IMG/VR virus record: IMGVR_UViG_3300030116_004830
Span: 1-64,000 of that record
From: a virus
Length of the DNA stretch: 64,000 nucleotides
Direction: 5' to 3' (one strand)
A model generated the notes under the pieces. The model was not told the DNA's origin and searched no databases. It saw only the letters and a list, made by a program, of their open reading frames with translations. Shown here one piece after another: positions 12,845 to 54,655 of the stretch. The position numbers and the translations under genes were made by a program. The stretch's first letter is position 1. Each line of letters begins with the position of its first letter.

Positions 12845-12845
12845 G

Positions 12846-14513: not shown

Positions 14514-14827
14514 GATTAAATGATTATCAAGGATTAGCAAGAAAAACTGCCTTATACCCAATGGAGGAAGGTTTGACTTATACTGCATTAGGATTATGCG
14601 GAGAAGCAGGTGAAGTTGCTGAGAAAATTAAGAAGTTCATTAGAGGAGATGAAGGAGTTTCTGTTAGAGAAGATTTACTACTAGAATTAGGAGATGTTCT
14701 ATGGTATCTTTCTAATTTGGCTTTTGAATGTGGCTATACTCTACAAGCAGTAGCAGAGGCTAACATCGAAAAACTAGACAATAGAAAGAAAAATAATACT
14801 ATCAAAGGCAGTGGTGATAAAAGATGA
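14510..14827 (+). CDS. mazG: MazG-like nucleotide pyrophosphohydrolase
   Basis: GLCGEAGEVAEKIKK...ELGDVLWY...NIEKL..R...GSGDKR. Confidence 0.92.
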   Translation: MRLNDYQGLARKTALYPMEEGLTYTALGLCGEAGEVAEKIKKFIRGDEGVSVREDLLLELGDVLWYLSNLAFECGYTLQAVAEANIEKLDNRKKNNTIKGSGDKR

Positions 14828-14949
14828 ATAGAATGTTCAAATGTAAACATTGCAATAAAATTGGTATGTCTGAACATTACATGAGATGTGTCCATTGTTA
14901 TGCTACAATGTCTAAGGATGAACTAAAGGAGTTGATAAAATGCAAATAG
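14824..14949 (+). CDS. 41-aa zinc-ribbon microprotein (not in ORF track)
   Basis: MNRMFKCKHCNKIGMSEHYMRCVHCYATMSKDELKELIKCK; ATGA overlap with mazG. Confidence 0.6.
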   Translation: MNRMFKCKHCNKIGMSEHYMRCVHCYATMSKDELKELIKCK

Positions 14950-25659: not shown

Positions 25660-26085
25660 TTATTCTACCTCCAATGTGTATATCACTTCGATTGTGTCTG
25701 TTGTTGAAAAGTTTCCTATTGCGTCAAAGTTAATTCTAGAAAGCATAATATTTTCCTTTTCCGAAGCCCCTGTAGCATCGAAGGAAGCACTTTCAATTTC
25801 AGCCATTTCTGCATCAGTAGCAACATCACCAAAGAACCCTACTTCTCTAATTGTATATCCTTGAAGTTCAGTTCCAGTAAATGAGCCTCTAAATTCTACT
25901 ACCTTATCGTCCGAAGAACTAGAAGTAGTTGAAGAATCTGTAGATGCAGGTAATGGAACATCGAGAGTTGTAGAAGTAGGATTAGTTCCACCTCCACCTG
26001 TTCCAAGTTTTACTTTTCCTGATGTAGCACCAAAAAATTCTCTTAAGAATAGCGCCATTTTCTTCTTTGTTGTATCCGTTATCAT
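25660..26085 (-). CDS. tail fibre attachment / baseplate protein (DUF3751-like)
   Basis: MITD...KLGTG...TIREVGFF...LSR pattern. Confidence 0.65.
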   Translation of the reverse strand: MITDTTKKKMALFLREFFGATSGKVKLGTGGGGTNPTSTTLDVPLPASTDSSTTSSSSDDKVVEFRGSFTGTELQGYTIREVGFFGDVATDAEMAEIESASFDATGASEKENIMLSRINFDAIGNFSTTDTIEVIYTLEVE

Positions 26086-39991: not shown

Positions 39992-42235
39992 CTAGAACCT
40001 CACATTAGTAGACGAAGAGGTAGTTCTATTTATTTCGGTGCTAACCATTCTACCTATCTTCTTTGCAATATCTCTTAACTCACTATCAGACGCACCTAAT
40101 CTTCCATTGACGTTAACACTGATATTATTTGTAACGCTCCCTCCCATCATTGACTTAGTGGTATCGTTTGAATGAATTCTTGTTCCTCTTGGAAGATTAA
40201 TTAATTCGGGACCTCTTTCACCAACCATCGACATTCCTCCTTTACTAATCCCTCCCATATGGAAAGGATTGAAAGCATCCTTTAATTTTGCAAATTCTCC
40301 TGTAATAAAATTAATAATCTTATCAATGAATTCTCCTCCCTTAGTTAATAACATTGGAAAGAAATCATTCTGAACATATTTAGCAAATGATGATATTGCT
40401 CCTGCCACTGTGTCCGTCCAAAACTTCACTGAAAGTATTTTTTTAACTCCTGCTATTACACCCATTATAACAGTAACATATGTTTTAATTACAAACGCAA
40501 CATACGCAATCGCTAATCTAATTACTAATTTTACTGCTCCTTTAAGGACGCTCCATAATATCTTGTATAATCCTTTATACAAACCTAATATTCCTTGGAA
40601 AAGTTTAGTGAATCTTTCCTTTAGTGTTCCTCCACCAAAGAATGCTTCAAAGATTAGAATGGCCCCACCAAACATATCTTTAATTCCATCAAATACTCCT
40701 CTTAGAGCATCCATCAAAGTTTCCATTACTTGCGCTTTTTCAAATATCTTTTTGATAACAACAAAGGCGAGTAATGCTCCTACTAAGAACATGATAAAAT
40801 ACATTGAATAGAGCATAGCCATCTTCATTACTTTACCTATAATTGAAAAAATAGGAGTAATCTTTTTCATTAAAACTGCTCTAGCGCCGCCCTGTTTTTT
40901 AACATACGCCTGTCCTTCTGAAATTTTCTTTCTTAATCCCTCAAAGCGTTTACCTTCAGGCCCTTTCTTGCTATCTTCCTTAAGAAATTTGAATCCTTTT
41001 GAAATATTCTCAAATCCTAAACCAAAGGTCATGAATCTCTCAGTGCCTTTTCCTATGAATTTTAAAACTTTAATTCTCATTTCATGATGTTTCTTTGCGT
41101 CATCGGCTCTTTGTTGTAATGCGGCCCTTAGTTGGCCCATACTGCCTTCATCTATTCCCTTATCACCCAATCTTCTTACACGACTACTTGCTATCCTCTG
41201 CCCTCGTTCCGCTTTCTGTCGTTTCTCAATTAATTTAGCCATAGGACCTGTTATCGCTTTACCCGTTTTAGAATCTATTCCTTTCTTAAGTTCATCTTCC
41301 GAATAAGTTGTAGTTAATTTACCCATTTCTTCCTTTATCTTTTCTAATTTCTTATCGGCTTTTATTTTCTTTTGAATTGCCGTTTCATATCTTGTTAGGT
41401 CTTCATTGGTAAACTTTGTTTTTCTTAAGAAACTCTTATTTCTTAATCTCTCTTCTCTTTCTAAGGCTTTCTGTAAGGCTTTACCCTCGGCTTTTAGATT
41501 GTCTTTTAATTGTTCATGGGTGGCTTCATATGCGTTTAATGTCCTTGCTAATGCTAATTGTTTTGCCTTTTCTATTTTCTTAAGAGCCTGTTCCTCGGTA
41601 TCTCTAGCATCTTCCGTTGCCGCCTTTAGAGCCTCAAAGGTATTTTTGTATTCTAAATTAGATTCAATTAATTTTTTGTGGTTATTTGCCTCTCCCATTA
41701 ATTTTAATTGTTTTTCTACCTGTTCTATATTGTTAGTCAATTCGCCCATAGCAAGTGCTTGCTCATTAGCGGCCTTAGTTGCTTCTTCGGTTCTACTCTG
41801 AAAACCATCCATAACTTGTCCTACGGCTCTAACATAATTTTGCAATTTCCATAAAGGACTACCTGATAATATGCGACTAAACATAGTCCATTTTTTACCA
41901 TAACCATCTACGTTATTAGCGGCCTTAGCAAACTTTCTAGTGAAACTTTCTGTTGTTGCATTAACTGTTTCTTGGGCCTTTACCAAAGAATATAACTCCG
42001 CAGTAGATTTTTTGGTTTCTTCAGTGCCATCACTTACTGCTTCGTTGTTAGCCCTTTGTGCAACTACTCCCTTCTCTAAAGCCTGTAACATTTTTTTGTT
42101 GTTATTGATTAAATGTCCCATTGCTTTATGAGTTTTCATTGTGCTTTTAGTCATAGATTCTAACATCTTTACGACTGGCTCAATATTTTTAGCAAGAGGG
42201 GCTAACTGCGAATTTATATCAGCCAATGAACTCAT
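39992..42235 (-). CDS. tail tape measure protein
   Basis: Long helical protein with hydrophobic segments and C-terminal GG...VGERGPEL; follows tail chaperones. Confidence 0.85.
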   Translation of the reverse strand: MSSLADINSQLAPLAKNIEPVVKMLESMTKSTMKTHKAMGHLINNNKKMLQALEKGVVAQRANNEAVSDGTEETKKSTAELYSLVKAQETVNATTESFTRKFAKAANNVDGYGKKWTMFSRILSGSPLWKLQNYVRAVGQVMDGFQSRTEEATKAANEQALAMGELTNNIEQVEKQLKLMGEANNHKKLIESNLEYKNTFEALKAATEDARDTEEQALKKIEKAKQLALARTLNAYEATHEQLKDNLKAEGKALQKALEREERLRNKSFLRKTKFTNEDLTRYETAIQKKIKADKKLEKIKEEMGKLTTTYSEDELKKGIDSKTGKAITGPMAKLIEKRQKAERGQRIASSRVRRLGDKGIDEGSMGQLRAALQQRADDAKKHHEMRIKVLKFIGKGTERFMTFGLGFENISKGFKFLKEDSKKGPEGKRFEGLRKKISEGQAYVKKQGGARAVLMKKITPIFSIIGKVMKMAMLYSMYFIMFLVGALLAFVVIKKIFEKAQVMETLMDALRGVFDGIKDMFGGAILIFEAFFGGGTLKERFTKLFQGILGLYKGLYKILWSVLKGAVKLVIRLAIAYVAFVIKTYVTVIMGVIAGVKKILSVKFWTDTVAGAISSFAKYVQNDFFPMLLTKGGEFIDKIINFITGEFAKLKDAFNPFHMGGISKGGMSMVGERGPELINLPRGTRIHSNDTTKSMMGGSVTNNISVNVNGRLGASDSELRDIAKKIGRMVSTEINRTTSSSTNVRF

Positions 42236-42874: not shown

Positions 42875-43123
42875 TCACTCGGAAGTTTCTGAACTCTCTT
42901 TTTCCTCCGATGATTCTTGGGCTTCAATCTCCGCCTTTCTTTGTTCTTTAGCGGCCTGTCTTTCAGCCTCTTCTGCCTTGGCTTTTTCTTCTTCTGCTTT
43001 AGCCTGTGCTTTAGCCGCTTTTTCCTGAGCCTTTTTCTCGGCTCTTGTTTTCTTAGCCTCTTCTTCTTCGGCTAATCTTTGAGCATACAATCTCTTTTTC
43101 TCATATTTATCCATTCTAATCAC
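42875..43123 (-). CDS. E/K/A-rich helical low-complexity protein
   Basis: Composition; GGGTGA RBS. Confidence 0.6.
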   Translation of the reverse strand: MIRMDKYEKKRLYAQRLAEEEEAKKTRAEKKAQEKAAKAQAKAEEEKAKAEEAERQAAKEQRKAEIEAQESSEEKESSETSE

Positions 43124-44736
43124 CCTTGTAGAACCCAGTGAGTTTTAACTTCACACTTACTCATTGTTCTCGGCATAACAGTGCCTTCAATTGTAATTGG
43201 TCCCTTATCATCAGGAACAGTAAGAGTAGCAGTGCTTAGGAAATAATCTTGGAAGTTTAGCAAGATTTGTTCTCCGCTATCTTTATCGAATTGTAGAACA
43301 ATCTCATTTGTTGAACCCAAATCTTCAGCATTATTCAACAATTCTTGGAATAACTTATCATCAGTAACTAGAGCAGTAAAGGCAATCTCATATGTCCTTT
43401 GAGCAGGAATAGCATTCTTAATCGCTTTACTAGAAACACCAACATATCTTTTATCTTGTAGATTGTTATTAATCGTTAAAGAGAGATTGGTAATCTTTAG
43501 GAAGGTTTGACCAAAGCAACTAAACAATCCACTAGAGAAAAAGAACGGTTCTAATCCGCCATTTGCTCCTGTTCCTGATGGGTAGTTGAATAGAGATGTG
43601 TCTGTCCCTACATTATTTCTAGGAGTGTAAACTTGTGTTGTAGTCAAATCATTAATGTAATCAACCGTTCTAGTGTTAAGGTCCATCGTCATTTTAACTT
43701 CTTCATTCTCGTTAGCAGTTAGAGTAAAAGTGTTTACTCGATTACCTCTAGCAATTCTAACAAGGGTTTCTGTTTCTGTAGCGACTCCTTGAGTAGCAGT
43801 TACATTTGATGTTTTAGCAATACTGTGTTCTAAAGAGAAAGAAGGCAAATCAGTTCCATTAGCCTCTGAGAATTCATAGGTAATAGGGTTTTGAATTACA
43901 CCTGCCGCAGTAAAAGTAGGAACAGTTAGTTTGTTCAAATTACTATGAGTATCTATACTATGAATAACTGGGGGTAATAATTGAGTATCTTCTCTAGACC
44001 TGTAAAAAATTGGCCCTTGATTAAGATGAGCAGTTTCAAAAGAACCACCGTGAGCAGTAGAAGAAGTATCTCCTGTATCAATGTAAACTTGGTCAGTTGT
44101 TCCCGACTCTGCTAAGAACAAAGATTGAGGAACAGTAGAACCCGAAGCAGAAGTGTATTTTGCACCAGTGCATTTACCTAATGCATAATACAACCATGTT
44201 CCTTGATTAGCAATTAATCCAATATTACCTCCACTTGCGGTTTCAATTCCTTTGTATTGATAACTAAAGTTTCTACTACCTCCAAGTGAAAGATTCATCT
44301 GTTTCATCTCTATCTCAGTATTTGGGAAAGTAGCAGTTTCTACAAGGCCCATCCAGTTATCAGCGTTTAACTTTAAAGAATTTGAACCTATTCTAGAAGC
44401 AGGACAAGGTGTTCCATAAGGATGAATATGGAAAAAGTCAGAATCATCAGAAGCAAAAGTAATAGAGGGAACTGGACTTACTGTAAATGTTGTAGTAGTA
44501 TTGCTAGTAATAGTATGCATAGTAGATGCATTGCTATCGTCAGCATTAAAAATTTCTACTGTGCATCCCTTATACAAATCAGGAACTAATTCCATCGTTG
44601 TAAAAGGAGCCAACGGAGCAATTATACCCGTTGCTTCTGTTGATGCGCTTTCATCTATAAATCCACTTAGCGTCAATTCTGGAACAAACGCTATGTTTGC
44701 TTGGCTTCCTACAAATATATCTTCATTTACGGTCAT
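43120..44736 (-). CDS. major tail tube protein
   Basis: LPSFSLE, VNTFTLT, NLSLTINNNL and RTYEIAF tube-like motifs; position. Confidence 0.75.
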   Translation of the reverse strand: MTVNEDIFVGSQANIAFVPELTLSGFIDESASTEATGIIAPLAPFTTMELVPDLYKGCTVEIFNADDSNASTMHTITSNTTTTFTVSPVPSITFASDDSDFFHIHPYGTPCPASRIGSNSLKLNADNWMGLVETATFPNTEIEMKQMNLSLGGSRNFSYQYKGIETASGGNIGLIANQGTWLYYALGKCTGAKYTSASGSTVPQSLFLAESGTTDQVYIDTGDTSSTAHGGSFETAHLNQGPIFYRSREDTQLLPPVIHSIDTHSNLNKLTVPTFTAAGVIQNPITYEFSEANGTDLPSFSLEHSIAKTSNVTATQGVATETETLVRIARGNRVNTFTLTANENEEVKMTMDLNTRTVDYINDLTTTQVYTPRNNVGTDTSLFNYPSGTGANGGLEPFFFSSGLFSCFGQTFLKITNLSLTINNNLQDKRYVGVSSKAIKNAIPAQRTYEIAFTALVTDDKLFQELLNNAEDLGSTNEIVLQFDKDSGEQILLNFQDYFLSTATLTVPDDKGPITIEGTVMPRTMSKCEVKTHWVLQG

Positions 44737-44760: not shown

Positions 44761-45348
44761 TTACACGGCTACTGCGAATTTCTTCATCGTCACATTTACT
44801 TTATACCCAAATAATCTCTTTGCTTTATTATTGGATTCTGTTCTTCCTCCTAATATGATATGATTCATTTTTAATGAGTCGCCGTTAATTGTAACTGTTG
44901 CTCCTTTCCTCTTTGCTTCTAAGGTGTGCCTAAGCGACTTATAAAGTGATTCCAATCTATCATGTGCAAAGATGTTATCTGCCGCCCTAGTGTCTCCTCC
45001 GCTAATAGTCCGTATATGGCAAGTTATATTATATATTTCATTGCGAACATCCCAAGAAATAGTAGGATATTCTATATCTTGACCATCTTCAAACACTATA
45101 ATTAGGTCTGAAGAAGTAGCCCCACCAATTGCAGGACTAGTTTGATTTAACAAACTATACTGTCTAGCCTGTCCTCTACTTACTTTACCCGATGTTCCAT
45201 CAGTAGAACCGCCCGAAGATAAATTACGAATATCAAGAATTGTAGGTTTAACTCTATGACTACTGGATATACCTAGTGTATTCTGCATAACAGAAGCCGA
45301 AGGCCAATTGTCTCTTAACAATTGAACTAGGTATGTTACTTCATCCAT
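44761..45348 (-). CDS. tail completion/terminator-like protein
   Basis: Size and position upstream of tail tube. Confidence 0.5.
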   Translation of the reverse strand: MDEVTYLVQLLRDNWPSASVMQNTLGISSSHRVKPTILDIRNLSSGGSTDGTSGKVSRGQARQYSLLNQTSPAIGGATSSDLIIVFEDGQDIEYPTISWDVRNEIYNITCHIRTISGGDTRAADNIFAHDRLESLYKSLRHTLEAKRKGATVTINGDSLKMNHIILGGRTESNNKAKRLFGYKVNVTMKKFAVAV

Positions 45349-45536
45349 TATAAGCCACTTTCCTTAACTATCTTTTCTAATCTTGCGATTACTTCTTTTT
45401 CTACGGCTTCTGCCATATACTTCTCAATCTCTGCATCTGAATAAGTATAGTCGCCTAGACCACTTTCTTCAAATAATTTATTCCTTTCTTCATACATTCT
45501 CTGTATTTGTTTAACCAATTTCATTACTTCACTCAA
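45348..45536 (-). CDS. hypothetical protein
   Basis: Translationally coupled. Confidence 0.6.
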   Translation of the reverse strand: MSEVMKLVKQIQRMYEERNKLFEESGLGDYTYSDAEIEKYMAEAVEKEVIARLEKIVKESGL

Positions 45537-46647
45537 TCAAGAACACCCCTTCTTTCTTTCCATCCACCATTGCCATTGCTTCTTTTCTCAGAATATCATA
45601 TTTTTCCTTTACCGAAATTTGATTATCCGATTCTGTAATAAGAACAGTAGCATCATCGGAACGAAGAATCTCACATGCTACAAGTTTAGTAGCCGCATCA
45701 GTAATCTGAGCAGGGACAGTTCCACTACCTGCAAAGTAAGTTGCCCTTATTGAGTTAAGATGAATATATGGAAACTTATCCCTAAAGAAAATTCTACCTT
45801 CTCTACCAATTTTCCACCAATCATCCATTCTTCCAGTATCTTGTTTATCAGTAAATCCACTAACACTTATTCCATGTTCATTTGTGGTAGCCGAATTACC
45901 ATTCAAATAAATAGAACAACCTGCACCGTCATCACTCGGAAGTAAAGAAGAAATGAGAACCTTATTTGAGTCCTCAGAATCCAAACAAGCGTAAAAGAAA
46001 TCAGAAACCTGCTTTGCTCCTGTAGAATCTGTTTGACCCTTTGCCTGAGTAGCACCTGTTAATGACGCAGTTTTAGATGGATACTTCTCATTGATTAATG
46101 AAACAAGTTCCTCTGCGGCAGTTTTGTTGCCATAAGTAGTATCGAATCTCGAATTGGTAGTTCCTGCAAGTAAATTGAATACTAATCCGCTATTAGGTAA
46201 TCGAAGATTAATTGTAGTTGTTCCGCTAATCATTGATGTATAATCATTCATTGTTACTGACGCTTCTGCACCACAAATGTTAGTCCATTTGTTACCTTCC
46301 CAAATATCTAAACGAATCATCTTAGAAATACTGTGTCTATCTAACTGAACAAACCCGATATAATCACGGTATCTACCAATTGCATAATGACCTACACCAA
46401 AAGTAAAATTATGATATTCCTTTTCGTAAAGTAATCTTCTCCAAGATGTTTTGGTTTTACTATCAATAAAATCCTCTATTCGTTTAATGAACTCTCCTAC
46501 CTCTGAATGCATAGGAGTAGTGTTAGCAGAAAATGGAGGAATTTGTAATAGTTCTGCTACCTTATCGGCAGTAGTATAATATCCTCTACCTAATGAATAA
46601 TCGGGATTAATAACAGTAGTATCAGAAGGCGATTTATACTGAGACAT
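45529..46647 (-). CDS. head-tail adaptor-like protein with internal insertion
   Basis: YTTADKV...IDSKT N-terminus and ATYFAG...VPAQITDAATKLVA C-terminus typical of connector proteins. Confidence 0.7.
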   Translation of the reverse strand: MSQYKSPSDTTVINPDYSLGRGYYTTADKVAELLQIPPFSANTTPMHSEVGEFIKRIEDFIDSKTKTSWRRLLYEKEYHNFTFGVGHYAIGRYRDYIGFVQLDRHSISKMIRLDIWEGNKWTNICGAEASVTMNDYTSMISGTTTINLRLPNSGLVFNLLAGTTNSRFDTTYGNKTAAEELVSLINEKYPSKTASLTGATQAKGQTDSTGAKQVSDFFYACLDSEDSNKVLISSLLPSDDGAGCSIYLNGNSATTNEHGISVSGFTDKQDTGRMDDWWKIGREGRIFFRDKFPYIHLNSIRATYFAGSGTVPAQITDAATKLVACEILRSDDATVLITESDNQISVKEKYDILRKEAMAMVDGKKEGVFLIE

Positions 46648-46650
46648 TTA

Positions 46651-47949
46651 TCATGCCTCCTTAGCAACTGGTATTTTTGAAATAGCCTCTTCTAATTTTT
46701 CTAATCTAGCCTTTAATAGATTTAGATAATATTTACGAGCCATATTGATTTTATCTGCTGTAAACTCACCTGCTCTACCTGCCGTCATTCCTGCACGACC
46801 AAGACCTCTAACCCTTTCAGTTTGACCAGTAGTAGCCGCCATTGTAGTTTTAGGTTTTAGAATAGCCGTTTTGATTTTTCTCCAAACTGTTTTGATTTCA
46901 ACTAGGTTATTCAATTCGTCCCCTTCAAATTTAGGAATTTTTTCACCCTCATCATCTAATTTAAATTTACCATAATTAGGATTATCTTCGGTATCATAAA
47001 TGGTTTCAGGTTCTCCTTTTTCATTTGTAATAGTGGTTGGTTTTCTGATAGTTCTTCTATCATCTATCTCATACAATTTTTTTTCCGATATTGGTTTAAG
47101 AAGAATAGTAAGAGTCATAGTAAAATCATATAGAATATCCTTATCCAATATATCTCTAGGAGTGTTCTTAATTATGATTCTCTCTAAATCCTTCTTGTTT
47201 TCAAATATAGAATCAATCAATATGTTTCCAAAATTTTCACCTTCATCTTTTAATGCTAAAGTCCCCTTTAATCCATCGGAAATTTCTACTATAGAAGAAT
47301 CGGAATCAGGAGATGTTCTAGGCTTTTTTGGTTTATGCAAAGCAACTTCTATTCCTAATTTTTCATACCATTTTATTTTACCGTGTTCTTCTTCAGGAGT
47401 ATCAGAGCGCATATTAAATTTCAGAACTATTTTATTTTCAGGACTGTTTTCATCATAAGTAAGGAACTCTTTTAATTTTGCTTTAGTTTCAGTGCCGAAA
47501 ACAGCATCTTGAAGCCTCTTTTCAAAATCTTTTAGAGTATATTCCTGTTCTAAAGCATCTTTTTCTTTAAATGGAGTAATCAATTGTTCTGTCTTAGGAA
47601 TGTTTCTTACATCCTTTAATTTATAATCTTCAGGAAATTCGTCTAAATTCATATGTTCTTTTAATTTGCCCAAAGGAATATCTGTTACCAATTCCTTTAA
47701 TGAAGCATTCATTAATTTATCAAGAGTTTTCTTACTAGTTTTTTTCAAATACTCTTCTGTCTCTTTAGTATATGATTGTCCTCTTTCCTCTAGCAGTTCG
47801 TCCTGCTCATCTAAGATTTCATCTTCTAATTCATCAATTTGATTCTTCCTATCTTGTTGATAAGGTATGAGAATATAATCTCTAAAGGACTGATAGAATC
47901 TACTATCGCTGACCTCTTGAAGAGTGCCGTCATACCATATTAGTTTCAT
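46651..47949 (-). CDS. hypothetical charged protein
   Basis: 432-aa ORF in operon; no recognised motif. Confidence 0.7.
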   Translation of the reverse strand: MKLIWYDGTLQEVSDSRFYQSFRDYILIPYQQDRKNQIDELEDEILDEQDELLEERGQSYTKETEEYLKKTSKKTLDKLMNASLKELVTDIPLGKLKEHMNLDEFPEDYKLKDVRNIPKTEQLITPFKEKDALEQEYTLKDFEKRLQDAVFGTETKAKLKEFLTYDENSPENKIVLKFNMRSDTPEEEHGKIKWYEKLGIEVALHKPKKPRTSPDSDSSIVEISDGLKGTLALKDEGENFGNILIDSIFENKKDLERIIIKNTPRDILDKDILYDFTMTLTILLKPISEKKLYEIDDRRTIRKPTTITNEKGEPETIYDTEDNPNYGKFKLDDEGEKIPKFEGDELNNLVEIKTVWRKIKTAILKPKTTMAATTGQTERVRGLGRAGMTAGRAGEFTADKINMARKYYLNLLKARLEKLEEAISKIPVAKEA

Positions 47950-47954
47950 TTAAA

Positions 47955-48668
47955 TCACGCAAGCCACTTAGCCCAAGCCGCACCCTTTTGAATCATCTTA
48001 CCTAATCCTAATCCACTATTAGGAGGAGAGTAGGTCGCTTGACCAGTAGCAGGGTCTATCCAGTATGGATTATTGTAATTATCATAACCGCTAGGAGGAA
48101 CAGGATAACCACTTTGATTGGTCATTGCACCTTGTCCCATAGCCATGTTTTGATTCATGTTCCCCATCATTGGTTGACCTTGAATATTAGCAGGAGTATT
48201 GTTTTGCATTTGTGGTTGTCCTCCCATTGCTGGTTGTCCTCCCATTACTGGTTGCCCTCCTCCATCTCCAAAACCTTGAGCCTCTAAATACTGATTCTTT
48301 GCCATTTGTCTTTGATATACAACCTCTTGATTAATTGAAGATTGTAAAATCTGTTGAATATCTAATTGAATATTTTCTTCTGTAATTCTTTCATACTCAG
48401 CAAGACATGCCTTTTCTAGAGTAATATCTCCTTGAGTGGCTTCTAATTTAAAATGCAATTTAGTTAGCATCCTACTCATTACTCTTTCAATAACATCTTC
48501 CAATAGTTTCTCATAAGAGGTAAAGAAGGCTTCACCATGATAAAGTAAAAACTCTTCAACATGGTTATCTTGTAGAGTCAAAAGGTTATTCATAGCCTTG
48601 AAACTCTTATCGTTGTTTTGGCTCATTTGGCTCGCTAAAGCACTGTTGCTTGTTCCTAGTAATCCCAT
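47955..48668 (-). CDS. helical protein with Q/G/M/P/Y-rich low-complexity region and amphipathic C-terminus
   Basis: GGQPVMGGQPAMGGQPQM repeats; ends GLGKMIQKGAAWAKWLA. Confidence 0.75.
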   Translation of the reverse strand: MGLLGTSNSALASQMSQNNDKSFKAMNNLLTLQDNHVEEFLLYHGEAFFTSYEKLLEDVIERVMSRMLTKLHFKLEATQGDITLEKACLAEYERITEENIQLDIQQILQSSINQEVVYQRQMAKNQYLEAQGFGDGGGQPVMGGQPAMGGQPQMQNNTPANIQGQPMMGNMNQNMAMGQGAMTNQSGYPVPPSGYDNYNNPYWIDPATGQATYSPPNSGLGLGKMIQKGAAWAKWLA

Positions 48669-49291
48669 TATTCATCACCTATTAATTCATCAATCTGTCC
48701 CATCTTACCCTTTAGTTCCATTAGTAGTATCATTAGTTTTTCTTCAGCAGTAGTCGTATCCGCCTTCGGGGGTTGTATTTCCCATCCCTTAGAGGTTAAT
48801 GAAATTATATCCTTCTCCGTTAAAGCAGTAAGCGGCCCCCTACTTATTACATTCGGCATTCTTGCTTTGGGAATATACTTTTTGAACTCTAATCCATGTT
48901 TTTCAGCAATCAATTGTTGCTCTAACATTTCCATCTGTTTGAACATAGAAGAATGTTTAGGACAATAAGTTCCTCTTAATGGTCTACCCTTATGAACATG
49001 AGATAATGGAATAGGAGGTCTAAGTGTATCTCCTGCGTCCCACACATGATGAACTCCACAAACTACACATCTATCTTTAATGTTAAATTTATAACCGTAT
49101 TTTACCAACAATAGGCTTTTCTTTTCAGGCATTAATACCTTGGTTATCTCTTTCATTTGTTTCTTAGTATCAAGAGATTTATATTCAAAATTAATAATGG
49201 GTCCTGCGGCCCTAGCAGAGTTCTTCATTCTTAATGGGTTAATCATTGTATTATCATTACCGATTATATTCGGTGTATATATTGCCGTCAT
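48668..49291 (-). CDS. zinc-finger protein with C-terminal coiled coil
   Basis: CVVC...CPKH. Confidence 0.7.
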   Translation of the reverse strand: MTAIYTPNIIGNDNTMINPLRMKNSARAAGPIINFEYKSLDTKKQMKEITKVLMPEKKSLLLVKYGYKFNIKDRCVVCGVHHVWDAGDTLRPPIPLSHVHKGRPLRGTYCPKHSSMFKQMEMLEQQLIAEKHGLEFKKYIPKARMPNVISRGPLTALTEKDIISLTSKGWEIQPPKADTTTAEEKLMILLMELKGKMGQIDELIGDE

Positions 49292-49295
49292 TTTA

Positions 49296-49973
49296 TCAAT
49301 ACTCCTTTATCATAGACATTATTCCTCGGTAAACCATTTCGGGGTCTGACTTGGCAGATACGATGTATTTGAAACATGGTATTCCCTTATCTTGTAACCG
49401 TTGCATACCGAGCCTGAACGGTTCAAAAATTGGATGTTTCTCGATAGGTCCGTTGTGTTCATATTTATCCTTCCATAAATCATACTTGTTAGCCCATATG
49501 CCTACTGCGATTGGAAAGTCCTTGTCCTTCTTTCTTTTAGTTTTACCCTTTCCTAATCTCCAAAAATCATCACAAATCGTATCTACTAAAAATTGCCAAG
49601 AGAGTTGATGTTCTAAATTATAGGCTTCTGATAAATGGCGGTCATCAATCATGAATATAAGATATTTTACCTTCCTTTTCATCATATCGTTTTTCCACGC
49701 ATCCCAGTAATATGATTGACCTCCTACATCAGCAGTTTTGATTGTCCTACTATCTTTATCTATTTTTACTGTTTTTCTAGAGGCACGATGTAAACCTTCT
49801 GTTCTATTCTGAATAACTGGAACTTCTCCTCTAGTTCTTAACTGTCGATGAAGGGTTGTTTTACCCGCCTTACTAGCACCATACACTCCAAAATTTATAG
49901 CATGAATTCTTTGGTAAAGGCTCATAGCCGCTTCTGCCGCTAAAATTGAAAAGCCTGTTAAAAGCGTAGCCAT
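49296..49973 (-). CDS. Arf/Sar1-like small GTPase (Ras superfamily)
   Basis: G1 GASKAGKTT, G2 RTEG, G3 DVGGQ, LIFMID, G4 ANKYD, G5 SAK; N-terminal hydrophobic/amphipathic helix. Confidence 0.9.
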   Translation of the reverse strand: MATLLTGFSILAAEAAMSLYQRIHAINFGVYGASKAGKTTLHRQLRTRGEVPVIQNRTEGLHRASRKTVKIDKDSRTIKTADVGGQSYYWDAWKNDMMKRKVKYLIFMIDDRHLSEAYNLEHQLSWQFLVDTICDDFWRLGKGKTKRKKDKDFPIAVGIWANKYDLWKDKYEHNGPIEKHPIFEPFRLGMQRLQDKGIPCFKYIVSAKSDPEMVYRGIMSMIKEY

Positions 49974-49976
49974 ACA

Positions 49977-50195
49977 TTAGTCCCACCCAATTAACTCCTT
50001 AAAACCATCAATTGCCAACCCAAGTAAATCAATACCGAATGAACCCATGATGTTACCGACCAAAAAGAAAAACACCGTAGAGCCAACGCCCCATAACCAG
50101 TATCTTACTTTTAGAAAGAAAATATCGGCAGAATGCGCTCTAGATAAATCGTATGCTAACGACTGTTCATCTACTCCTAAGAGCCTATCTAACAT
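49977..50195 (-). CDS. small membrane protein
   Basis: Hydrophobic YWLWGVGSTVFFFLVGNIMG; AAGGTGA RBS. Confidence 0.75.
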   Translation of the reverse strand: MLDRLLGVDEQSLAYDLSRAHSADIFFLKVRYWLWGVGSTVFFFLVGNIMGSFGIDLLGLAIDGFKELIGWD

Positions 50196-50207
50196 TGGAC
50201 ATCACCT

Positions 50208-50588
50208 TCATTCTAGTGCTTGAAGGAATGTTTCAGATACCTCATCATAGGGGGATTGTGGGCCACTGTAGTAGGTTAGATTTTTACCTTTCATGGATTC
50301 TCTAATCTTCTGCTTTTGTTGCTCATCTCTTTGTTTCTTTTCCCAATACATATCTATCTTTCGATTCAATAACCACATTTCAAATCTATCATTCACTGCT
50401 AAATCAAACAGTGCTTTCTGTAGCATTATTACGCCTACAGTAATCAGTCCAAACAATATTGCATGTGTAACCGCAGTAAACGGTAATTGGCCACCATATG
50501 CAGAATAGAAATAAACATTCATTCCGCACATTGCGCCTACATACATTATCGTCATTATTAGCCTAGTATCTTTATTGATAGCCGCCAT
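50208..50588 (-). CDS. two-TM membrane protein with coiled-coil tail
   Basis: Two hydrophobic helices followed by a charged helix; start moved to MAAINK. Confidence 0.75.
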   Translation of the reverse strand: MAAINKDTRLIMTIMYVGAMCGMNVYFYSAYGGQLPFTAVTHAILFGLITVGVIMLQKALFDLAVNDRFEMWLLNRKIDMYWEKKQRDEQQKQKIRESMKGKNLTYYSGPQSPYDEVSETFLQALE

Positions 50589-50598
50589 TATATCCCTC

Positions 50599-50931
50599 TC
50601 AATTAAATTCAACGGTGAATACTTGACTGGTTCCTGCCGCAACAGTAACATCTGCATATAGTCCGTTTCTGAAAACTACACCATGCATATCTGCTTCCGC
50701 AGAACCATTAATCAAACTGTTAGGGTCCATTCCTACAATCAATTGGCCAATAAGGTTACTATTTGCTTTCGCCCCTGATGAAGCCACATCATACAGTTTG
50801 ATGTAAGCAACGTCACCTGCACCAGTTACCATTCCGTGAACGCTAATCAATTTGCCCTGTCCAATCGTTATTTGAGTATCAGCAGTAATAGCATTACTAC
50901 TCCTACATCCACCTATTCCAGTCATCCGCAT
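50599..50931 (-). CDS. small beta-sandwich virion protein
   Basis: GKLISVHG...IKLYD...GVVFRNGLY pattern; near capsid gene. Confidence 0.6.
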   Translation of the reverse strand: MRMTGIGGCRSSNAITADTQITIGQGKLISVHGMVTGAGDVAYIKLYDVASSGAKANSNLIGQLIVGMDPNSLINGSAEADMHGVVFRNGLYADVTVAAGTSQVFTVEFN

Positions 50932-50971
50932 TACCTCGTTAAGAGATGCTAAATACTTTCAGCGTATAAGG

Positions 50972-51367
50972 TTACTCATCAGCAGAAGTTTCTTCTGAGG
51001 TTTCCTCAACAGGGGTTTCAGTAGCAGATTTTGAAGAAGTCAAAGTAGATTTGACTGTCTCTACTGCTTTCTTTGGAACCTCTGCCGCTTTCTTTGTTAC
51101 GGACTTCTTAGGCATCAATGCTGTCTTTACTGCTTTAGGCTCAACACTAAGTTTTTCTCCCATTTCAGTAAGCAATTCTTCAGGTAGGTCTTTGAAATCT
51201 GCATCAGTGAATTCCACTAGAAAATCAGGGTTCTTCATATACATAACTGCAATTTGAGAATTAACTTCTTGAGTAACCCCTGCTACGAATCTAATGTTCT
51301 GAAAAACAAAAGAAGATACACCATCTCCTTGTTGTTCATCTCTAGGTAATAGAGTTAGTTTAGCCAA
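50972..51367 (-). CDS. hypothetical protein
   Basis: GGGTGA RBS, TTG start. Confidence 0.65.
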   Translation of the reverse strand: MAKLTLLPRDEQQGDGVSSFVFQNIRFVAGVTQEVNSQIAVMYMKNPDFLVEFTDADFKDLPEELLTEMGEKLSVEPKAVKTALMPKKSVTKKAAEVPKKAVETVKSTLTSSKSATETPVEETSEETSADE

Positions 51368-51377
51368 GGTATCACCC

Positions 51378-51752
51378 TCAAATTAAACCGTAAACTCTTA
51401 GCCTAAACTGCATCCCACTGTGGGTATTACCATCAGTTTGTTCTGCTGGTGTGGCTTGTAGAGCGTCTACTATCAACATAGTGAATTGAGTAGCACTAGT
51501 ATATCCACCACCAGTTGTAGTAGTTCCATCTATTACAAAGGTCGGATAGAACTTCACATTCGCAGTTCCAGTATGAGTAACTGCGCTAACGGTAGATAGT
51601 CCAAAGTCAGACGCACTGAATACAACACCTGCTGAATCATAAGTAGAAACATCTACGAAAGCATCAACAAAGTATTCATCGCCCGAAACTCTAGGAGCAG
51701 TTGCTCCTTTATGGTCAGCCAAGATATGAACTTCAAATACTTCTTCGGTCAC
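51378..51752 (-). CDS. putative capsid decoration protein
   Basis: Directly downstream of capsid gene; beta-rich. Confidence 0.55.
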   Translation of the reverse strand: MTEEVFEVHILADHKGATAPRVSGDEYFVDAFVDVSTYDSAGVVFSASDFGLSTVSAVTHTGTANVKFYPTFVIDGTTTTGGGYTSATQFTMLIVDALQATPAEQTDGNTHSGMQFRLRVYGLI

Positions 51753-51763
51753 TTAAAATCACC

Positions 51764-53125
51764 TCACTTCAAGTTGGTGATTTTTCCTTGTCCCTTAAAG
51801 AAGGTGCAACCAGTTTCACCCATTGTTCTGTAAAGACCTCTGTTACCTAGGACTCCAACACCGAATGGGTTTCCATGAGAAATACCGTCCTCAAAGTATT
51901 GGGTAGGCTTCATTGTAGCAAACCATAGATGGTCAGTGTCTAGCAATAGCATGTCGGATAGACCGCTTGTTGCCGCACCTGTCTTTGGCATGTCCTTACA
52001 AGGAATTAGAGGAATATCGTAGTATGTTGCAACTCTGAATCCAACTTCTGCACCCTTTACGCCCTTTACACCGTTATGGGTTGGAATAACTTCCTTAGCG
52101 TCCATGAATCTTTCTTGGCTCTGTAGCAAGTCAGACAATGCTTGAATGGTATCGTATCCAGTTAGGATAACCTTTGGAGTTCCACCATTCAATCTTAGGT
52201 TCTGAATAACATCGTTAATGATGCTTAGAGTTAGAACACGACCCGCAGTAGCGTAAGATGCACCGTAGTTAACAACCGAATCCATGAAAGATGCGCCTGT
52301 TGCTCTTGAGGTGTTACCGTAAAGAGTTGTTACATCAGCGTCTAGGTCAGCAATAGCAGATGAAACGCTTGAAAGCCTATCAAGTTCACCACCGCTATCG
52401 GACAACTCATCGTTACTGCTAACAATCTTCAATAGAGAAGTATAGTTTTCACGAATTCTTCCGCTTGAAGTATCTGCTCCAAGTGTATCGTAGTTCTCAA
52501 GAGGCATTACTAGCATAACCGACTGAGATTCTGCGTGGAATTTACCCATATCCTCACGAATGAGTTTACGAATATCTCCAACACCATCATCAATCTTAGC
52601 CATTTCAGCCGCAAGTTCGGAGTAATCGAACATATGAGCGACAATCTTTGGGTTCATGTATAGAGTGGTGTATTCAGGAGCAAGGGCTTCCAACTGTGTG
52701 CTATCCAATGCTTCGTTTTCACCGACACCACCGAGCAAATCTCCATCAGGAGTTTCTGAACCTTGAACACCACTTCCAGTAGTTGCACCTACAGCGAATG
52801 CCGCCGCACTTCCACCTTGAGGTCTGTTAATCATAACTCTCCAGCCGCTTGAAGTGTATGGCCTCTTAGGTAGAATAGATAGTGGGTTGATTTCTTGGTT
52901 AATCATTGACCAAACTTTCTGACCGTAAACCATGTTGTAAAGTGCAGTTAGGTTTGTTGCCGCAGTTCCGTTAAGAGTTAGTGCAGTGTCGGACGAACCA
53001 GTGAATCCACTGTTGATTCCGCCAACAATACCTGCCGCCTTCAAAAGGTTGTTTCCACCTACGTTACCATAGGTTGCTCTTTCCAAATCTTGAATTGTGT
53101 TAATGTATTTCGTCATTTTTTTCAT
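51764..53125 (-). CDS. major capsid protein (HK97 fold)
   Basis: Follows prohead protease; size; P-domain-like TYYDIPLIP...MLLLDTD; high-expression codon style. Confidence 0.85.
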   Translation of the reverse strand: MKKMTKYINTIQDLERATYGNVGGNNLLKAAGIVGGINSGFTGSSDTALTLNGTAATNLTALYNMVYGQKVWSMINQEINPLSILPKRPYTSSGWRVMINRPQGGSAAAFAVGATTGSGVQGSETPDGDLLGGVGENEALDSTQLEALAPEYTTLYMNPKIVAHMFDYSELAAEMAKIDDGVGDIRKLIREDMGKFHAESQSVMLVMPLENYDTLGADTSSGRIRENYTSLLKIVSSNDELSDSGGELDRLSSVSSAIADLDADVTTLYGNTSRATGASFMDSVVNYGASYATAGRVLTLSIINDVIQNLRLNGGTPKVILTGYDTIQALSDLLQSQERFMDAKEVIPTHNGVKGVKGAEVGFRVATYYDIPLIPCKDMPKTGAATSGLSDMLLLDTDHLWFATMKPTQYFEDGISHGNPFGVGVLGNRGLYRTMGETGCTFFKGQGKITNLK

Positions 53126-53149
53126 CTCCTTATTGTTTCTCTAATGGGA

Positions 53150-54655
53150 TTAGAGTTGTCCCTCCAATCTTTCAACTAGAGCGTTAATGTCGCTCCAATC
53201 CATCTTTGCGATTTCGTCACCATTAGGAATGTTAAGTTCTGCAACTGCTTCTTCTTGCTTACGAATTACAGTTTCTTCTTCTGCCTTTAGATTGTTAAGA
53301 AGGTCAGCGAATTGCTTTCTCAACTCAGTTACTTCTGCCTTAGCATCGTAGTTTGCCTTCTCAATTTCCTCGGTCTTAGCAACCATTTCAGAATTGAATC
53401 TTGCTTGGAATCCTTCCTTTACTTTATCAAAAGCCATCTTCTCAAGTTGTTCTGCCTTGAATTCAGCGTAAGCCTTCTCCAAGTTTTCAGCAGATAGGTC
53501 AAGAGTAGTTTGGTCTTCAAACTTAGCCATGTATTTGCTGTCCAATTGTGGATGAGCATCATCTACATATTCACCAGCGTTTCCTGCTTCTACTTGACCA
53601 GTAGCCAAATCAGGCTTTGACTTTCTTTCGGTATCCATGTATTCTCCACCCATACCTTTTTCGTCCATCATCTCTTTATCAGGCATATTAGGATTCATTG
53701 CTTCAACATCCTCTTCTGCGTTTTCAATTTCTTCTTCTTCTTTAGCAACCATTTCTGTTCCCTCGGATGTTTTCTGATTTTTCTCTATGTTCTTATTAAC
53801 GTTTTCTGCTGAATCCGTGTTTTCCATATCTTTCATAGCATTAAATTGGTCAACCATTTGTCTTAGTTCATCCTTTTCCATAATGCCTCTACCTAATACT
53901 CTTTCATATGGAGCCATCTCTACTTTACCAGTAGTGTTTTCCATATCTTCTTTCATAGCGTCAATTACATCTTTCTTCTTGTAATCCCCGCTAGTCAATA
54001 CTTCAAGGTATTGCATTTTTACTACGCTTTCATTATTGTATGCGGAATTTGCCGCATCCAACGTCTTGTTCAGTTCTTCTAGTGCTTTGCTTATTGCATT
54101 CATTTTATCACCTTTATCCATTTTTAGTATATCGAATTTTGCTTCAGGGTTAATACCCTTTTCACAAATCGTTACTTCATGGAGTTCTAATTTGGAGATT
54201 TCATTGTATTCTCCGTATTCTTTGTGGGTCTTCTTTCTCTTTTCTAAGGCTTGACCCCCAATACTAAATGAGCGTAGAGAACCATCTCTGATTTCTCTAC
54301 CAACCTCTTTTGCCTTTTCAATATCTTCTCTCATCTTAATGACGACAAAGAATCCAACATCGTCTACTTCTGTCTTGTAGAGTTTACCTGTCTTATCTCT
54401 GTAACTAGGAATAACTTCTCCTACTTGAACATTAGAATGATTAGTCATTACGTTTCTAAACTTCGTAATTTTCATGTATTTGTTTACTGCTTCTTGTAGT
54501 GCATCAAGAGTAATAAGGTCGTTTTGCTTATCTACCATTTCAATAGAAGCATAACCTCCAATGACTAAGTTATTGGATTTAAGGATGGTAAAGGGGTCAT
54601 TTCTAATAGCGTTGATAGAAGTGACCGCACTACCCATGCGTGATACTTTTTTCAC
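53150..54655 (-). CDS. prohead protease fused to scaffolding domain
   Basis: GYAS...VDKQND, catalytic H (NHSN), SFSIGG, LHEVT...INPEA; acidic coiled-coil C-terminal half. Confidence 0.9.
   Translation of the reverse strand: MKKVSRMGSAVTSINAIRNDPFTILKSNNLVIGGYASIEMVDKQNDLITLDALQEAVNKYMKITKFRNVMTNHSNVQVGEVIPSYRDKTGKLYKTEVDDVGFFVVIKMREDIEKAKEVGREIRDGSLRSFSIGGQALEKRKKTHKEYGEYNEISKLELHEVTICEKGINPEAKFDILKMDKGDKMNAISKALEELNKTLDAANSAYNNESVVKMQYLEVLTSGDYKKKDVIDAMKEDMENTTGKVEMAPYERVLGRGIMEKDELRQMVDQFNAMKDMENTDSAENVNKNIEKNQKTSEGTEMVAKEEEEIENAEEDVEAMNPNMPDKEMMDEKGMGGEYMDTERKSKPDLATGQVEAGNAGEYVDDAHPQLDSKYMAKFEDQTTLDLSAENLEKAYAEFKAEQLEKMAFDKVKEGFQARFNSEMVAKTEEIEKANYDAKAEVTELRKQFADLLNNLKAEEETVIRKQEEAVAELNIPNGDEIAKMDWSDINALVERLEGQL

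What the first reader, a model, noticed from the sequence alone, without database searches (positions are those of the whole stretch)
47955..50588. Five-gene Arf-like GTPase and membrane-protein cassette inside the virion morphogenesis operon: candidate viral egress or membrane-remodelling machine
Seen: five tightly coupled genes (gaps of 0-12 nt) between the capsid and head-tail genes. They encode a two-TM protein with coiled coil, a small TM protein, a small GTPase, a CxxC...CxxH zinc-finger protein, and a Q/G/M/P/Y low-complexity protein ending in an amphipathic helix. Established: Arf/Sar1 GTPases use an N-terminal amphipathic helix to recruit coats and bend membranes. Most archaea lack peptidoglycan, so holin-endolysin lysis does not apply directly. 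No lysis gene is recognisable elsewhere in this window. Inference: the cassette is a GTP-timed membrane-disruption, vesiculation or assembly-site system expressed late. I do not know of it having been described.
Basis: partly seen in the sequence, partly recalled or inferred. Interest (0 to 1): 0.92.

Follow-up and report, generated by a model that had tools for sequence, protein, structure and literature searches.

The report
Magrovirus Arf-like GTPase membrane cassette
A tailed virus of abundant ocean archaea carries its own very divergent Arf-type GTP switch, always in one block with two small membrane proteins and two orphan proteins. The block moves as a unit between virus lineages and is an untested candidate for how these viruses act on, or break out through, the host membrane.

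Summary
Five minus-strand genes (47955-50588) lie 12, 3, 4 and -1 nt apart, between the capsid gene and the tail genes of a magrovirus-type genome. They encode a probable two-TM protein, a 72-aa TM protein, a complete small GTPase, a Cys/His protein and a Q/G/M/N/P-rich protein.

The GTPase family profile matches Arf-family structures best: Arl3 1.3e-12, then Asgard ArfR, Arf1 and Sar1. The family is small and seen almost only on viral contigs.

All five genes keep their order in every one of 80 related loci that is long enough. All 25 capsid-anchored records carry one GTPase. The GTPase is better conserved than the capsid protein.

The same architecture recurs in two more distant lineages, at different genome positions. 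C, D and E are homologous there; A and B match only in position and topology. So it is a self-contained, relocatable unit.

The function is unknown. The membrane-remodelling or egress reading is plausible but untested. The zinc ligands and the catalytic Gln are not conserved, and the "amphipathic" N-helix is mostly just hydrophobic.

No paper I could search describes the cassette. This scan has already reported it on at least 58 other genomes, with the same verdict.

The parts
50208..50588 (-). Gene A: 126-aa membrane protein. One clear TM (residues 38-56), a probable TM (about 10-28) and a charged helical C-terminus.
   Evidence: ORF. Start at 50588 supported by relatives (lengths 123-135 aa, gap about 9 nt to the upstream gene). 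Hydropathy. No Pfam, PHROG or PADLOC family. Positional and topological analogues in groups 2 and 3; hhalign only E 0.0036.
49977..50195 (-). Gene B: 72-aa protein with a conserved LSRAHSAD motif and a Gly-rich hydrophobic helix (residues 37-62).
   Evidence: Present in 78 of 80 related loci. A small TM ORF sits in the same place in 66 group-2 loci and in group 3. No detectable sequence homology between groups.
49296..49973 (-). Gene C: 225-aa small GTPase of the Arf/Sar/G-alpha clade.
   Evidence: Pfam Arf E 1.3e-4, 21.9 bits against a cut-off of 22.3. Family profile A2 against PDB: Arl3 1.3e-12, ArfR 8OUN 6.6e-12, Arf1 about 5e-10, Sar1 1.2e-9. Invariant G1-G5 residues. Only 84 representatives at E<=1e-3 among 1.84 billion.
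49902..49970 (-). N-terminal hydrophobic helix of the GTPase (residues 2-24; G7, F8 and E14 invariant among close relatives).
   Evidence: AF2 helix 2-24 at low confidence (pLDDT 52-64). Invariants. Hydrophobic moment 0.23, mean hydrophobicity 0.30. A hydrophobic N-terminus is present in all distant members.
49521..49559 (-). Lys/Arg-rich insert of the GTPase (residues 139-151, RLGKGKTKRKKDK) between helix 3 and the G4 strand.
   Evidence: Read from the sequence. A 12-residue window with 4-8 K/R lies between G3 and G4 in all three groups.
48668..49291 (-). Gene D: 207-aa orphan protein. Small beta/knuckle core with C75, C78, C110 and H113 (48953-49069), then long helices.
   Evidence: Group-1 HMM hits the gene directly downstream of the GTPase in 66 of 80 group-2 loci. 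tblastn 31% identity to group 3. AF2 pLDDT 73, core about 90. No fold match: Foldseek E>=2, VIA Z<=4.3. No Pfam or PDB sequence match.
47955..48668 (-). Gene E: 237-aa orphan protein. Hydrophobic N-terminal tip (MGLLG), acidic helical core (21-131), G/Q/N/M/P-rich region (132-205) and a conserved C-terminus ...GLGLGKMIQKGAAWAKWLA.
   Evidence: Core homologous to the equivalent group-2 protein by hhalign (probability 93.5%, E 2.3e-7). No Pfam, PDB or Atlas match.

Best explanation
The five genes form one conserved, self-contained functional unit of magrovirus-type archaeal viruses.

**Proposed mechanism.**
- At the centre is a virus-specific small GTPase of the Arf/Sar/G-alpha clade.
- Its hydrophobic N-terminal helix and Lys/Arg-rich loop would place it on the host cytoplasmic membrane.
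- There it would meet two integral membrane proteins, A and B.
- Two orphan soluble partners would act as regulator and effector: D (Cys/His knuckle plus long helices) and E (hydrophobic tip, acidic helical core, Gln/Gly/Met-rich region).

**Likely job.** The most likely job is a GTP-switched action on the host membrane late in infection, probably release of virions. No other egress or lysis gene is recognisable.

**Shown.**
- Gene structure, and purifying selection on all five genes.
- Arf-clade affinity of the GTPase.
- Hydrophobic partners.
- Strict co-occurrence, and relocation as a unit.

**Inferred.**
- Membrane localisation.
- Physical complex.
- Late timing, from co-orientation and 0-12 nt spacing with the structural genes.
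- A role in egress.

The confidence figure is for the egress reading. I would give about 0.65 to the weaker claim of a membrane-associated GTPase unit.
For: **Co-occurrence.**
- A-B-C-D-E are in the same order in all 80 GTPase-anchored IMG/VR loci wherever the contig reaches.
- 25 of 25 capsid-anchored records of 25 kb or more carry exactly one GTPase.

**Relocation as a unit.**
- A second magrovirus group has a capsid protein 38-49% identical and a GTPase about 30% identical. It has the same architecture about 21 kb upstream of the capsid gene, and no cassette between capsid and tail.
- A third lineage (110 kb, GC 52.5%) has the cassette next to a chaperonin.

**Homology between groups.**
- C, D and E are homologous across groups.
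- With the third lineage the window shares only chaperonin, PolB, the GTPase and D by tblastn.

**Constraint.**
- Mean pairwise identity is 0.70 for the GTPase against 0.67 for the capsid protein.
- All five genes track capsid divergence, Spearman rho 0.53-0.70.
- dN/dS is 0.04-0.22.

**Family and membrane features.**
- Arf-family best hits.
- A hydrophobic N-terminus in every family member.
- TM segments in A and B.

**Gap this could fill.**
- No Pfam or PHROG lysis family in the late region.
- A 2024 review calls the egress machinery of archaeal tailed viruses completely uncharacterised (PMC10791045).

**Precedent.** An Arf-like GTPase operon (ArvABC) drives vesicle formation in Euryarchaeota (PMC10927574).
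Against: - There is no functional, localisation or expression evidence.
- The N-terminal helix has a low hydrophobic moment (0.23) and an invariant Glu. It may pack on the G domain or bind a partner rather than lipid.
- The residue after DxGG varies (Q, E, D, H), so GTP hydrolysis may differ or be weak in many members.
- A and B match no known holin family. There is no enzyme that could attack an S-layer.
- Such high, capsid-like conservation is unusual for lysis genes of bacteriophages (my own knowledge).
- In this window's group the cassette sits among head-tail connector genes, which would also suit a morphogenesis role.
Confidence: 0.35

Rival explanations
1. Morphogenesis factor. The unit is a non-structural assembly device. 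It could be a membrane-anchored platform or a GTP-checked chaperone step for head completion or head-tail joining. It has nothing to do with release.
For: - In this window's group it sits between capsid and accessory head genes and the neck and tail genes, with 0-12 nt spacing.
- Its conservation matches that of the capsid protein.
- In group 2 it lies upstream of the portal and protease genes on the same strand.
Against: - Tailed-virus assembly has no known need for integral membrane proteins or a small GTPase (my own knowledge).
- The closest cultured relatives, haloviruses HCTV-1 and HVTV-1, share the capsid module. They show no tblastn match to the GTPase at E<=1.
- Its position relative to the structural genes is not fixed.
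Confidence: 0.2
2. Host-membrane takeover other than lysis. The GTPase might drive vesicle formation as ArvA does (decoys, membrane supply, export), block host division, or exclude superinfecting viruses.
For: - ArvA, an Arf-like GTPase with an N-terminal helix, is required for vesicle formation in Haloferax. Its operon holds a Zn-ribbon partner (PMC10927574).
- The viral unit likewise pairs a GTPase with a Cys/His protein directly downstream.
- Membrane proteins in late operons of phages are often exclusion factors (my own knowledge).
Against: - OapC/ArvC (PF09845) gives no hit in the genome even at E<=1.
- None of the five proteins hits a DUF2073/ArvB-type or any other Pfam family apart from the GTPase.
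- None of the five matches any PADLOC defence model.
- Exclusion and arms-race genes are usually patchy and fast-evolving (my own knowledge). This unit is universal in the records tested and slow-evolving.
Confidence: 0.2
3. The five proteins are ordinary structural virion components.
For: They lie in the structural gene block of this lineage. The Atlas neighbours of E are uncharacterised viral proteins, at scores too low to count (0.78).
Against: - A and B have TM segments.
- C is a complete P-loop GTPase.
- None matches a PHROG structural family. The one weak hit, phrog_78 at E 0.0014, was on the 149-aa form of A and covers only its charged tail.
- The unit lies far from the capsid genes in other lineages.
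Confidence: 0.05

Closest known systems
Arf-family small GTPases: eukaryotic Arf1, Arl3, Arl8 and Sar1; Asgard ArfR (GerdArfR1, PDB 8OUN/8OUM; bioRxiv 10.1101/2024.02.28.582541)
   Same: - Complete G1-G5 motifs.
- DVGGQ followed by Trp residues.
- An N-terminal helix ahead of strand 1.
- Best family-profile matches in the PDB: Arl3 1.3e-12, 8OUN 6.6e-12, Arf1 about 5e-10, Sar1 1.2e-9.
- Pfam Arf is the strongest hit among family members, best 1.9e-15, in 16 of 33.
   Different: - The window protein alone is below the Pfam Arf cut-off (21.9 against 22.3 bits).
- No canonical Arf or Ras appears among the 84 library hits of the close-family profile.
- It is about 45 residues longer, with a Lys/Arg-rich insert.
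- The N-helix is hydrophobic with a low moment.
- The catalytic residue varies (Q, E, D, H).
- It is encoded by viruses. Among 185,579 species genomes only two contigs of one MAG match, and these are probably mis-binned viral DNA.
- The interswitch toggle that defines Arf proteins could not be tested.
ArvA-ArvB-ArvC (OapABC), the archaeal vesiculating GTPase operon of Haloferax volcanii and other Euryarchaeota and DPANN (PMC10927574)
   Same: An Arf-like small GTPase with a hydrophobic N-terminal helix, in a conserved operon with small partner proteins. One partner is a Cys-rich (Zn-ribbon) protein downstream. The operon acts on the cytoplasmic membrane of ESCRT-poor archaea.
   Different: - The partners are unrelated. 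There is no OapC (PF09845) hit in the genome and no DUF2073-type hit.
- The viral unit adds two integral membrane proteins and a Gln/Gly/Met-rich protein.
- It is viral, not cellular.
- Direct similarity of C to ArvA was not tested, because no ArvA sequence was available through the tools.
Holin-based lysis cassettes of tailed bacteriophages
   Same: Small membrane proteins with 1-2 TM segments and charged C-termini, tightly packed in a late operon. In group 2 the unit lies upstream of the packaging and head genes, where lambdoid phages keep their lysis genes (my own knowledge).
   Different: - No match to any holin, endolysin or spanin family.
- No wall-degrading enzyme.
- A GTPase and two orphan soluble proteins have no counterpart in such cassettes.
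- Much stronger sequence conservation than is typical for holins (my own knowledge).
Heterotrimeric G-alpha Ras-like domain
   Same: DVGGQ motif and a long N-terminal helix. Foldseek hits of the low-confidence model are at E about 5e-4, TM about 0.4. MiniGq scores 6.9e-11 in the profile search.
   Different: No helical domain. The model is poor (pLDDT 65) and the TM-scores are low. Arf-family chains score better by sequence profile.

Membership tests
Arf family (Arf/Arl/Sar/ArfR) | Complete small-GTPase G1-G5 motifs | tested here: met
   GASKAGKTT, T58, DVGGQ, NKYD and SAK. G37, K38, T39, T40, T58, D82, G85, N162, K163, D165, S206, A207 and K208 are invariant in 20 relatives.
Arf family (Arf/Arl/Sar/ArfR) | Scores above the curated Pfam Arf (PF00025) threshold | tested here: not met
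   The window protein scores 21.9 bits, E 1.3e-4, against a cut-off of 22.3. 16 of 33 family members hit Arf at E<=0.01, best 1.9e-15.
Arf family (Arf/Arl/Sar/ArfR) | Closer to Arf-family proteins than to Ras, Rab or other GTPases | tested here: met
   Family profile A2 against PDB: Arl3 1.3e-12, ArfR 8OUN 6.6e-12, Arf1 about 5e-10, Sar1 1.2e-9, HRas 5.9e-9. The margin over G-alpha (miniGq 6.9e-11) is small.
Arf family (Arf/Arl/Sar/ArfR) | N-terminal amphipathic helix | tested here: inconclusive
   Helix 2-24 is predicted at pLDDT 52-64. Hydrophobic moment 0.23, mean hydrophobicity 0.30; 0.30-0.46 in other groups. It is hydrophobic but only weakly amphipathic.
Arf family (Arf/Arl/Sar/ArfR) | Interswitch toggle coupling nucleotide state to release of the N-helix (the feature named as defining in 10.1101/2024.02.28.582541) | not testable with these tools
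   The switch and interswitch region of the model has pLDDT below 50 (residues 35-86). GDP- and GTP-bound structures are needed.
ArvABC (OapABC) vesiculation operon | ArvC/OapC Zn-ribbon protein (PF09845) near the GTPase | tested here: not met
   No PF09845 match in the whole 87,650-bp record at E<=1. The control search found the family above cut-off in 2 genomes. D has no Pfam hit.
ArvABC (OapABC) vesiculation operon | ArvB/OapB (DUF2073, SepF-like) directly downstream of the GTPase | tested here: not met
   A, B, D and E have no Pfam family at E<=0.1 apart from one chance-level Mo25 hit on E.
ArvABC (OapABC) vesiculation operon | GTPase orthologous to ArvA (HVO_3014) | not tested
   No ArvA sequence could be obtained through the tools. 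NCBIfam gives only the generic small_GTP domain.
Holin-endolysin lysis cassette | Small membrane protein(s) with 1-3 TM segments and a charged C-terminus | tested here: met
   A has TM 38-56 (KD 2.09), a probable TM at 10-28 and a C-terminus with 11 K/R and 12 D/E. B has one helix at KD 1.6-1.7.
Holin-endolysin lysis cassette | Membership of a described holin, endolysin or spanin family | tested here: not met
   No Pfam or PHROG lysis family for the five proteins or for the other late-region proteins scanned.
ESCRT-III/Snf7 (considered for E) | Snf7-type helical core detectable by sequence | tested here: not met
   No Pfam hit. The E family profile finds no ESCRT-III, PspA or Vipp1 chain in the PDB even at E<=10. 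The core is acidic, net -7.

The most novel reading that the evidence does not exclude
The cassette is a previously unknown kind of virus egress machine for wall-less, S-layer archaea. A virus-encoded Arf-like GTPase is recruited by two viral membrane proteins. With a Gln/Gly/Met-rich effector it vesiculates or ruptures the host membrane at a GTP-set time. It would fill the role that holin-endolysin systems play in bacteriophages and virus-associated pyramids play in crenarchaeal viruses.
Probability: 0.25. Interest if true: 0.9.

Novelty: new variant of a known kind. Interest (0 to 1): 0.72.

Why it matters
- **An open question.** Magroviruses are among the most abundant archaeal viruses of the surface ocean. 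How any tailed archaeal virus leaves its host is unknown (PMC10791045).
- **A concrete candidate.** The GTPase cassette is universal in every record tested here and evolves slowly. It is one of only four genes recognisably shared with a very distant lineage, so it is a good candidate to test.
- **Wider reach of Arf-type GTPases.** Arf-type, helix-anchored GTPases would extend from eukaryotes, Asgard archaea and the euryarchaeal ArvA system into viruses of prokaryotes. This bears on how old GTPase-driven membrane remodelling is.
- **New families.** D and E have no known fold or sequence relatives.
- **Limit.** The hosts are uncultured, so tests must be heterologous or in vitro.

Tried and rejected
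- **Complex of C with D**: no verdict, score 0.00. This counts neither for nor against binding.
- **RNA runs for 45000-54000**: none was listed.
The contexts of the most distant singleton GTPases (P0156, P0177, P0178 and others) could not be read.
- **Viral-contig scans** with P0156, P0130 and P0135 found no confirmed locus.
- **Genome-contig scan.** Alignment A2 was too diverse to use. A1 found only two contigs, both in one Maricaulis MAG.
- **Fold of D.**
  - Foldseek found nothing below E 2.
  - VIA-align's best was Z 4.3, on helical hairpins only.
  - The PDB sequence profile found nothing below E 0.5.
- **Atlas searches of D and E**: best scores 0.80 and 0.78, at chance level.
- **E as ESCRT-III.**
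  - The MG[LI]FG tip recalled the N-terminal insertion motif of CHMP3, but that is from memory only.
  - No sequence support was found.
  - The core is acidic. In group 2 the tip is often MAWW or MVWPF instead.
  - I kept only 'short hydrophobic N-terminal tip'.
- **phrog_78 'tail terminator'** hit of the 149-aa form of A (E 0.0014): it covers only the charged tail, so I treat it as chance.
- **Foldseek of the GTPase model** gave G-alpha Ras-like domains (E about 5e-4, TM about 0.4). The model is poor (pLDDT 65). I read this as a long N-helix on a Ras-like core, not as membership.
- **PADLOC**: no hit.
- **D as an Arf-GAP-like zinc finger**: the Zn ligands and the Arg residues are not invariant.
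- **Group 3 capsid or portal**: not found in a record that is 79% complete. This shows nothing either way.
Full report
**1. What is in the window**

The window is part of an 87,650-bp viral record with the gene content described for magroviruses.

Plus-strand replication block:
- chaperonin, 909-2432
- ATP-dependent ligase, 4428-5963
- RFC-like clamp loader, 8681-9619
- family-B DNA polymerase in two ORFs
- Cas4-like nuclease

Minus-strand late block:
- portal, 60796-62454
- a second ligase, 54676-57159
- prohead protease, 53150-54655
- major capsid protein (MCP), 51764-53125
- tail tube, 43120-44736
- tape measure, 39992-42235

The capsid protein is 26-27% identical to those of haloviruses HCTV-1 and HVTV-1. 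A ligase embedded in the structural module was described by Philosof et al. for magrovirus groups A and B (PMC5434244).

**2. The observation**

Five minus-strand genes occupy 47955-50588, with gaps of 12, 3, 4 and -1 nt.

- **A** (126 aa) has one clear and one probable TM segment and a charged C-terminus.
- **B** (72 aa) has a conserved LSRAHSAD motif and a Gly-rich hydrophobic helix.
- **C** (225 aa) has all five G motifs.
- **D** (207 aa) has C75-x2-C78 ... C110-x2-H113.
- **E** (237 aa) has four parts:
  - a hydrophobic tip
  - an acidic helical core
  - a G/Q/N/M/P-rich stretch
  - a conserved Trp-rich C-terminus

All five are under purifying selection, with dN/dS about 0.04-0.22 against close relatives.

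**3. The GTPase**

- Alone, it scores just under the Pfam Arf threshold: 21.9 against 22.3 bits. Against the PDB it finds only marginal Arl8 and Arf4 hits.
- A profile of close relatives, searched against 1.84 billion representative proteins, found only 84 at E<=1e-3. Most are fragments or singletons from metagenomes. The family is therefore small.
- It is seen almost only on viral contigs. One weak member is a Heimdallarchaeial 'Rab family GTPase'.
- A profile including the distant members finds Arf-family structures first: Arl3 1.3e-12, Asgard ArfR 8OUN 6.6e-12, Arf1 about 5e-10, Sar1 1.2e-9. G-alpha and Ras follow close behind.
- Pfam Arf is the strongest family among members.
- Every member has a hydrophobic N-terminal segment and a Lys/Arg-rich insert between G3 and G4.

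Caveats:
- The N-helix has a low hydrophobic moment, 0.23.
- The residue after DxGG is Q or E in this group, Q, E or D in group 2, and H (as in Sar1) in group 3.
- The AF2 model is poor (pLDDT 65).
- The interswitch toggle that defines Arf proteins (10.1101/2024.02.28.582541) cannot be judged.

I place the protein in the Arf/Sar/G-alpha clade, not inside the Arf family proper.

**4.

- Among 80 IMG/VR loci fetched with the GTPase (64-96% identity), A-B-C-D-E appear in the same order wherever the contig reaches. They lie between the capsid block and the 372-aa neck-region gene.
- Starting instead from the capsid protein, 25 of 25 records of 25 kb or more have exactly one GTPase.
- In 42 non-redundant loci the mean pairwise identities are as follows:

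| Protein | Mean pairwise identity |
|---|---|
| GTPase | 0.70 |
| Capsid protein | 0.67 |
| E | 0.63 |
| D | 0.55 |
| A | 0.54 |
| B | 0.50 |

- All five track capsid divergence, Spearman rho 0.53-0.70. This fits mostly vertical co-inheritance.

**5. The unit moves as a block**

*Group 2.*
- The GTPase is about 30% identical and the capsid protein 38-49% identical.
- These viruses have a 150-200-aa protein with one or two TM-like segments and a Q/E/M-rich tail, then a 73-89-aa TM protein, the GTPase, a D homologue, an E homologue and usually a further roughly 80-aa two-TM protein.
- The block lies about 21 kb upstream of the capsid gene on the same strand, after a roughly 2,000-aa protein. 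The capsid-to-neck interval has no cassette.

*Group 3.*
- In this 110-kb record with GC 52.5%, the same five-gene architecture follows a chaperonin.
- By tblastn this record shares only chaperonin, PolB, the GTPase (35% identity) and D (31% identity) with the window.

*Homology between groups.*
- D is found by HMM in 66 of 80 group-2 loci.
- E matches its group-2 counterpart by hhalign at 93.5% probability, E 2.3e-7.
- A is suggestive only (E 0.0036), and B is similar only in size, place and topology.
- D's second Cys is Asp in many group-2 members. In group 3 the second Cys and the His are lost. Zinc binding is therefore not a conserved property.

**6. What the partners are**

- D folds with a confident core (pLDDT about 90 for residues 30-135). 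It matches no solved fold and no sequence family.
- E matches nothing.
- None of the five hits a defence model.
- A complex prediction of C with D gave no verdict.

**7. Interpretation**

- The evidence shows a conserved functional unit centred on an Arf-clade GTPase with hydrophobic partners. It does not show what the unit does.
- I favour a GTP-switched action on the host membrane late in infection, most likely release. Three points favour this:
  - No other lysis or egress gene is recognisable.
  - The egress machinery of archaeal tailed viruses is unknown (PMC10791045).
  - An Arf-like GTPase operon (ArvABC) drives vesiculation in Euryarchaeota (PMC10927574).
- The viral partners are not ArvB or ArvC. 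The parallel is one of working principle, not of membership.
- The rivals cannot be excluded: a morphogenesis role, vesiculation or exclusion, and least likely a structural role.

**8. Novelty**

- None of the magrovirus, Poseidoniales-virus or archaeal tailed-virus papers I could search mentions a GTPase.
- Some IMG records carry the automatic name 'GTPase SAR1 family protein'.
- This scan has already reported the same cassette on at least 58 other genomes, with the same verdict.
  - the capsid-anchored universality test
  - the three different genomic contexts
  - E homology across groups
  - the non-conservation of the Zn ligands and of the catalytic residue
  - the finding that the GTPase and D are among only four genes shared with the GC-rich third lineage

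Noticed in passing
window 12822-15869 (+): The family-B DNA polymerase is split into two ORFs: 12822-14513 (exonuclease domain plus the start of the polymerase domain) and 14940-15869 (the rest of the polymerase domain). A 105-aa ORF (14510-14827) lies between them. Group 3 record G030 matches both parts. This could be a split gene, an intein, or the footprint of a homing endonuclease.
   Followed up: partly
window 909-2432 (+): A virus-encoded group II chaperonin (Cpn60_TCP1, E 6.5e-44). It is one of only four genes shared by tblastn with the distant GC-rich lineage, where the chaperonin lies directly upstream of the GTPase cassette.
   Followed up: partly
window 26082-36713 (-): A 3,543-aa ORF downstream of the tail genes with no Pfam family at E<=0.01.
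   Followed up: no
L115 13-6102 (+), and the same place in about 40 group-2 loci: A roughly 2,000-aa protein with several Cys clusters and no Pfam hit lies directly upstream of the cassette in many group-2 viruses.
   Followed up: no
group-1 loci, for example L042, L054, L063, L071, L074 and L075: Some relatives have an extra 250-575 nt between B and C or between C and D, enough for a small inserted gene. The rest of the cassette is unchanged.
   Followed up: no
L175, L176 (NZMJ01000024.1, NZMJ01000101.1): The only genome-collection hits to the GTPase (61-64% identity) lie on two contigs of a MAG labelled Maricaulis, an alphaproteobacterium. They are most likely magrovirus contigs binned by mistake.
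   Followed up: no
window 62454-63872 (-): A 472-aa protein upstream of the portal has an HNH-endonuclease-like PHROG hit in its C-terminal part (E 6.7e-7). It may be the inserted nuclease, or part of the terminase region, that Philosof et al. describe in the structural module.
   Followed up: no
L115 9370-9678 (-): A DUF6171 Cys-rich protein (E 3.6e-7) is encoded on the opposite strand just downstream of the group-2 cassette.
   Followed up: no
window 46651-47949 (-): The 432-aa acidic, Lys/Glu-rich gene directly downstream of E is the least conserved gene of the block. It is detectable in only about a quarter of related loci, and the interval it occupies varies from about 1.0 to 2.8 kb.
   Followed up: no
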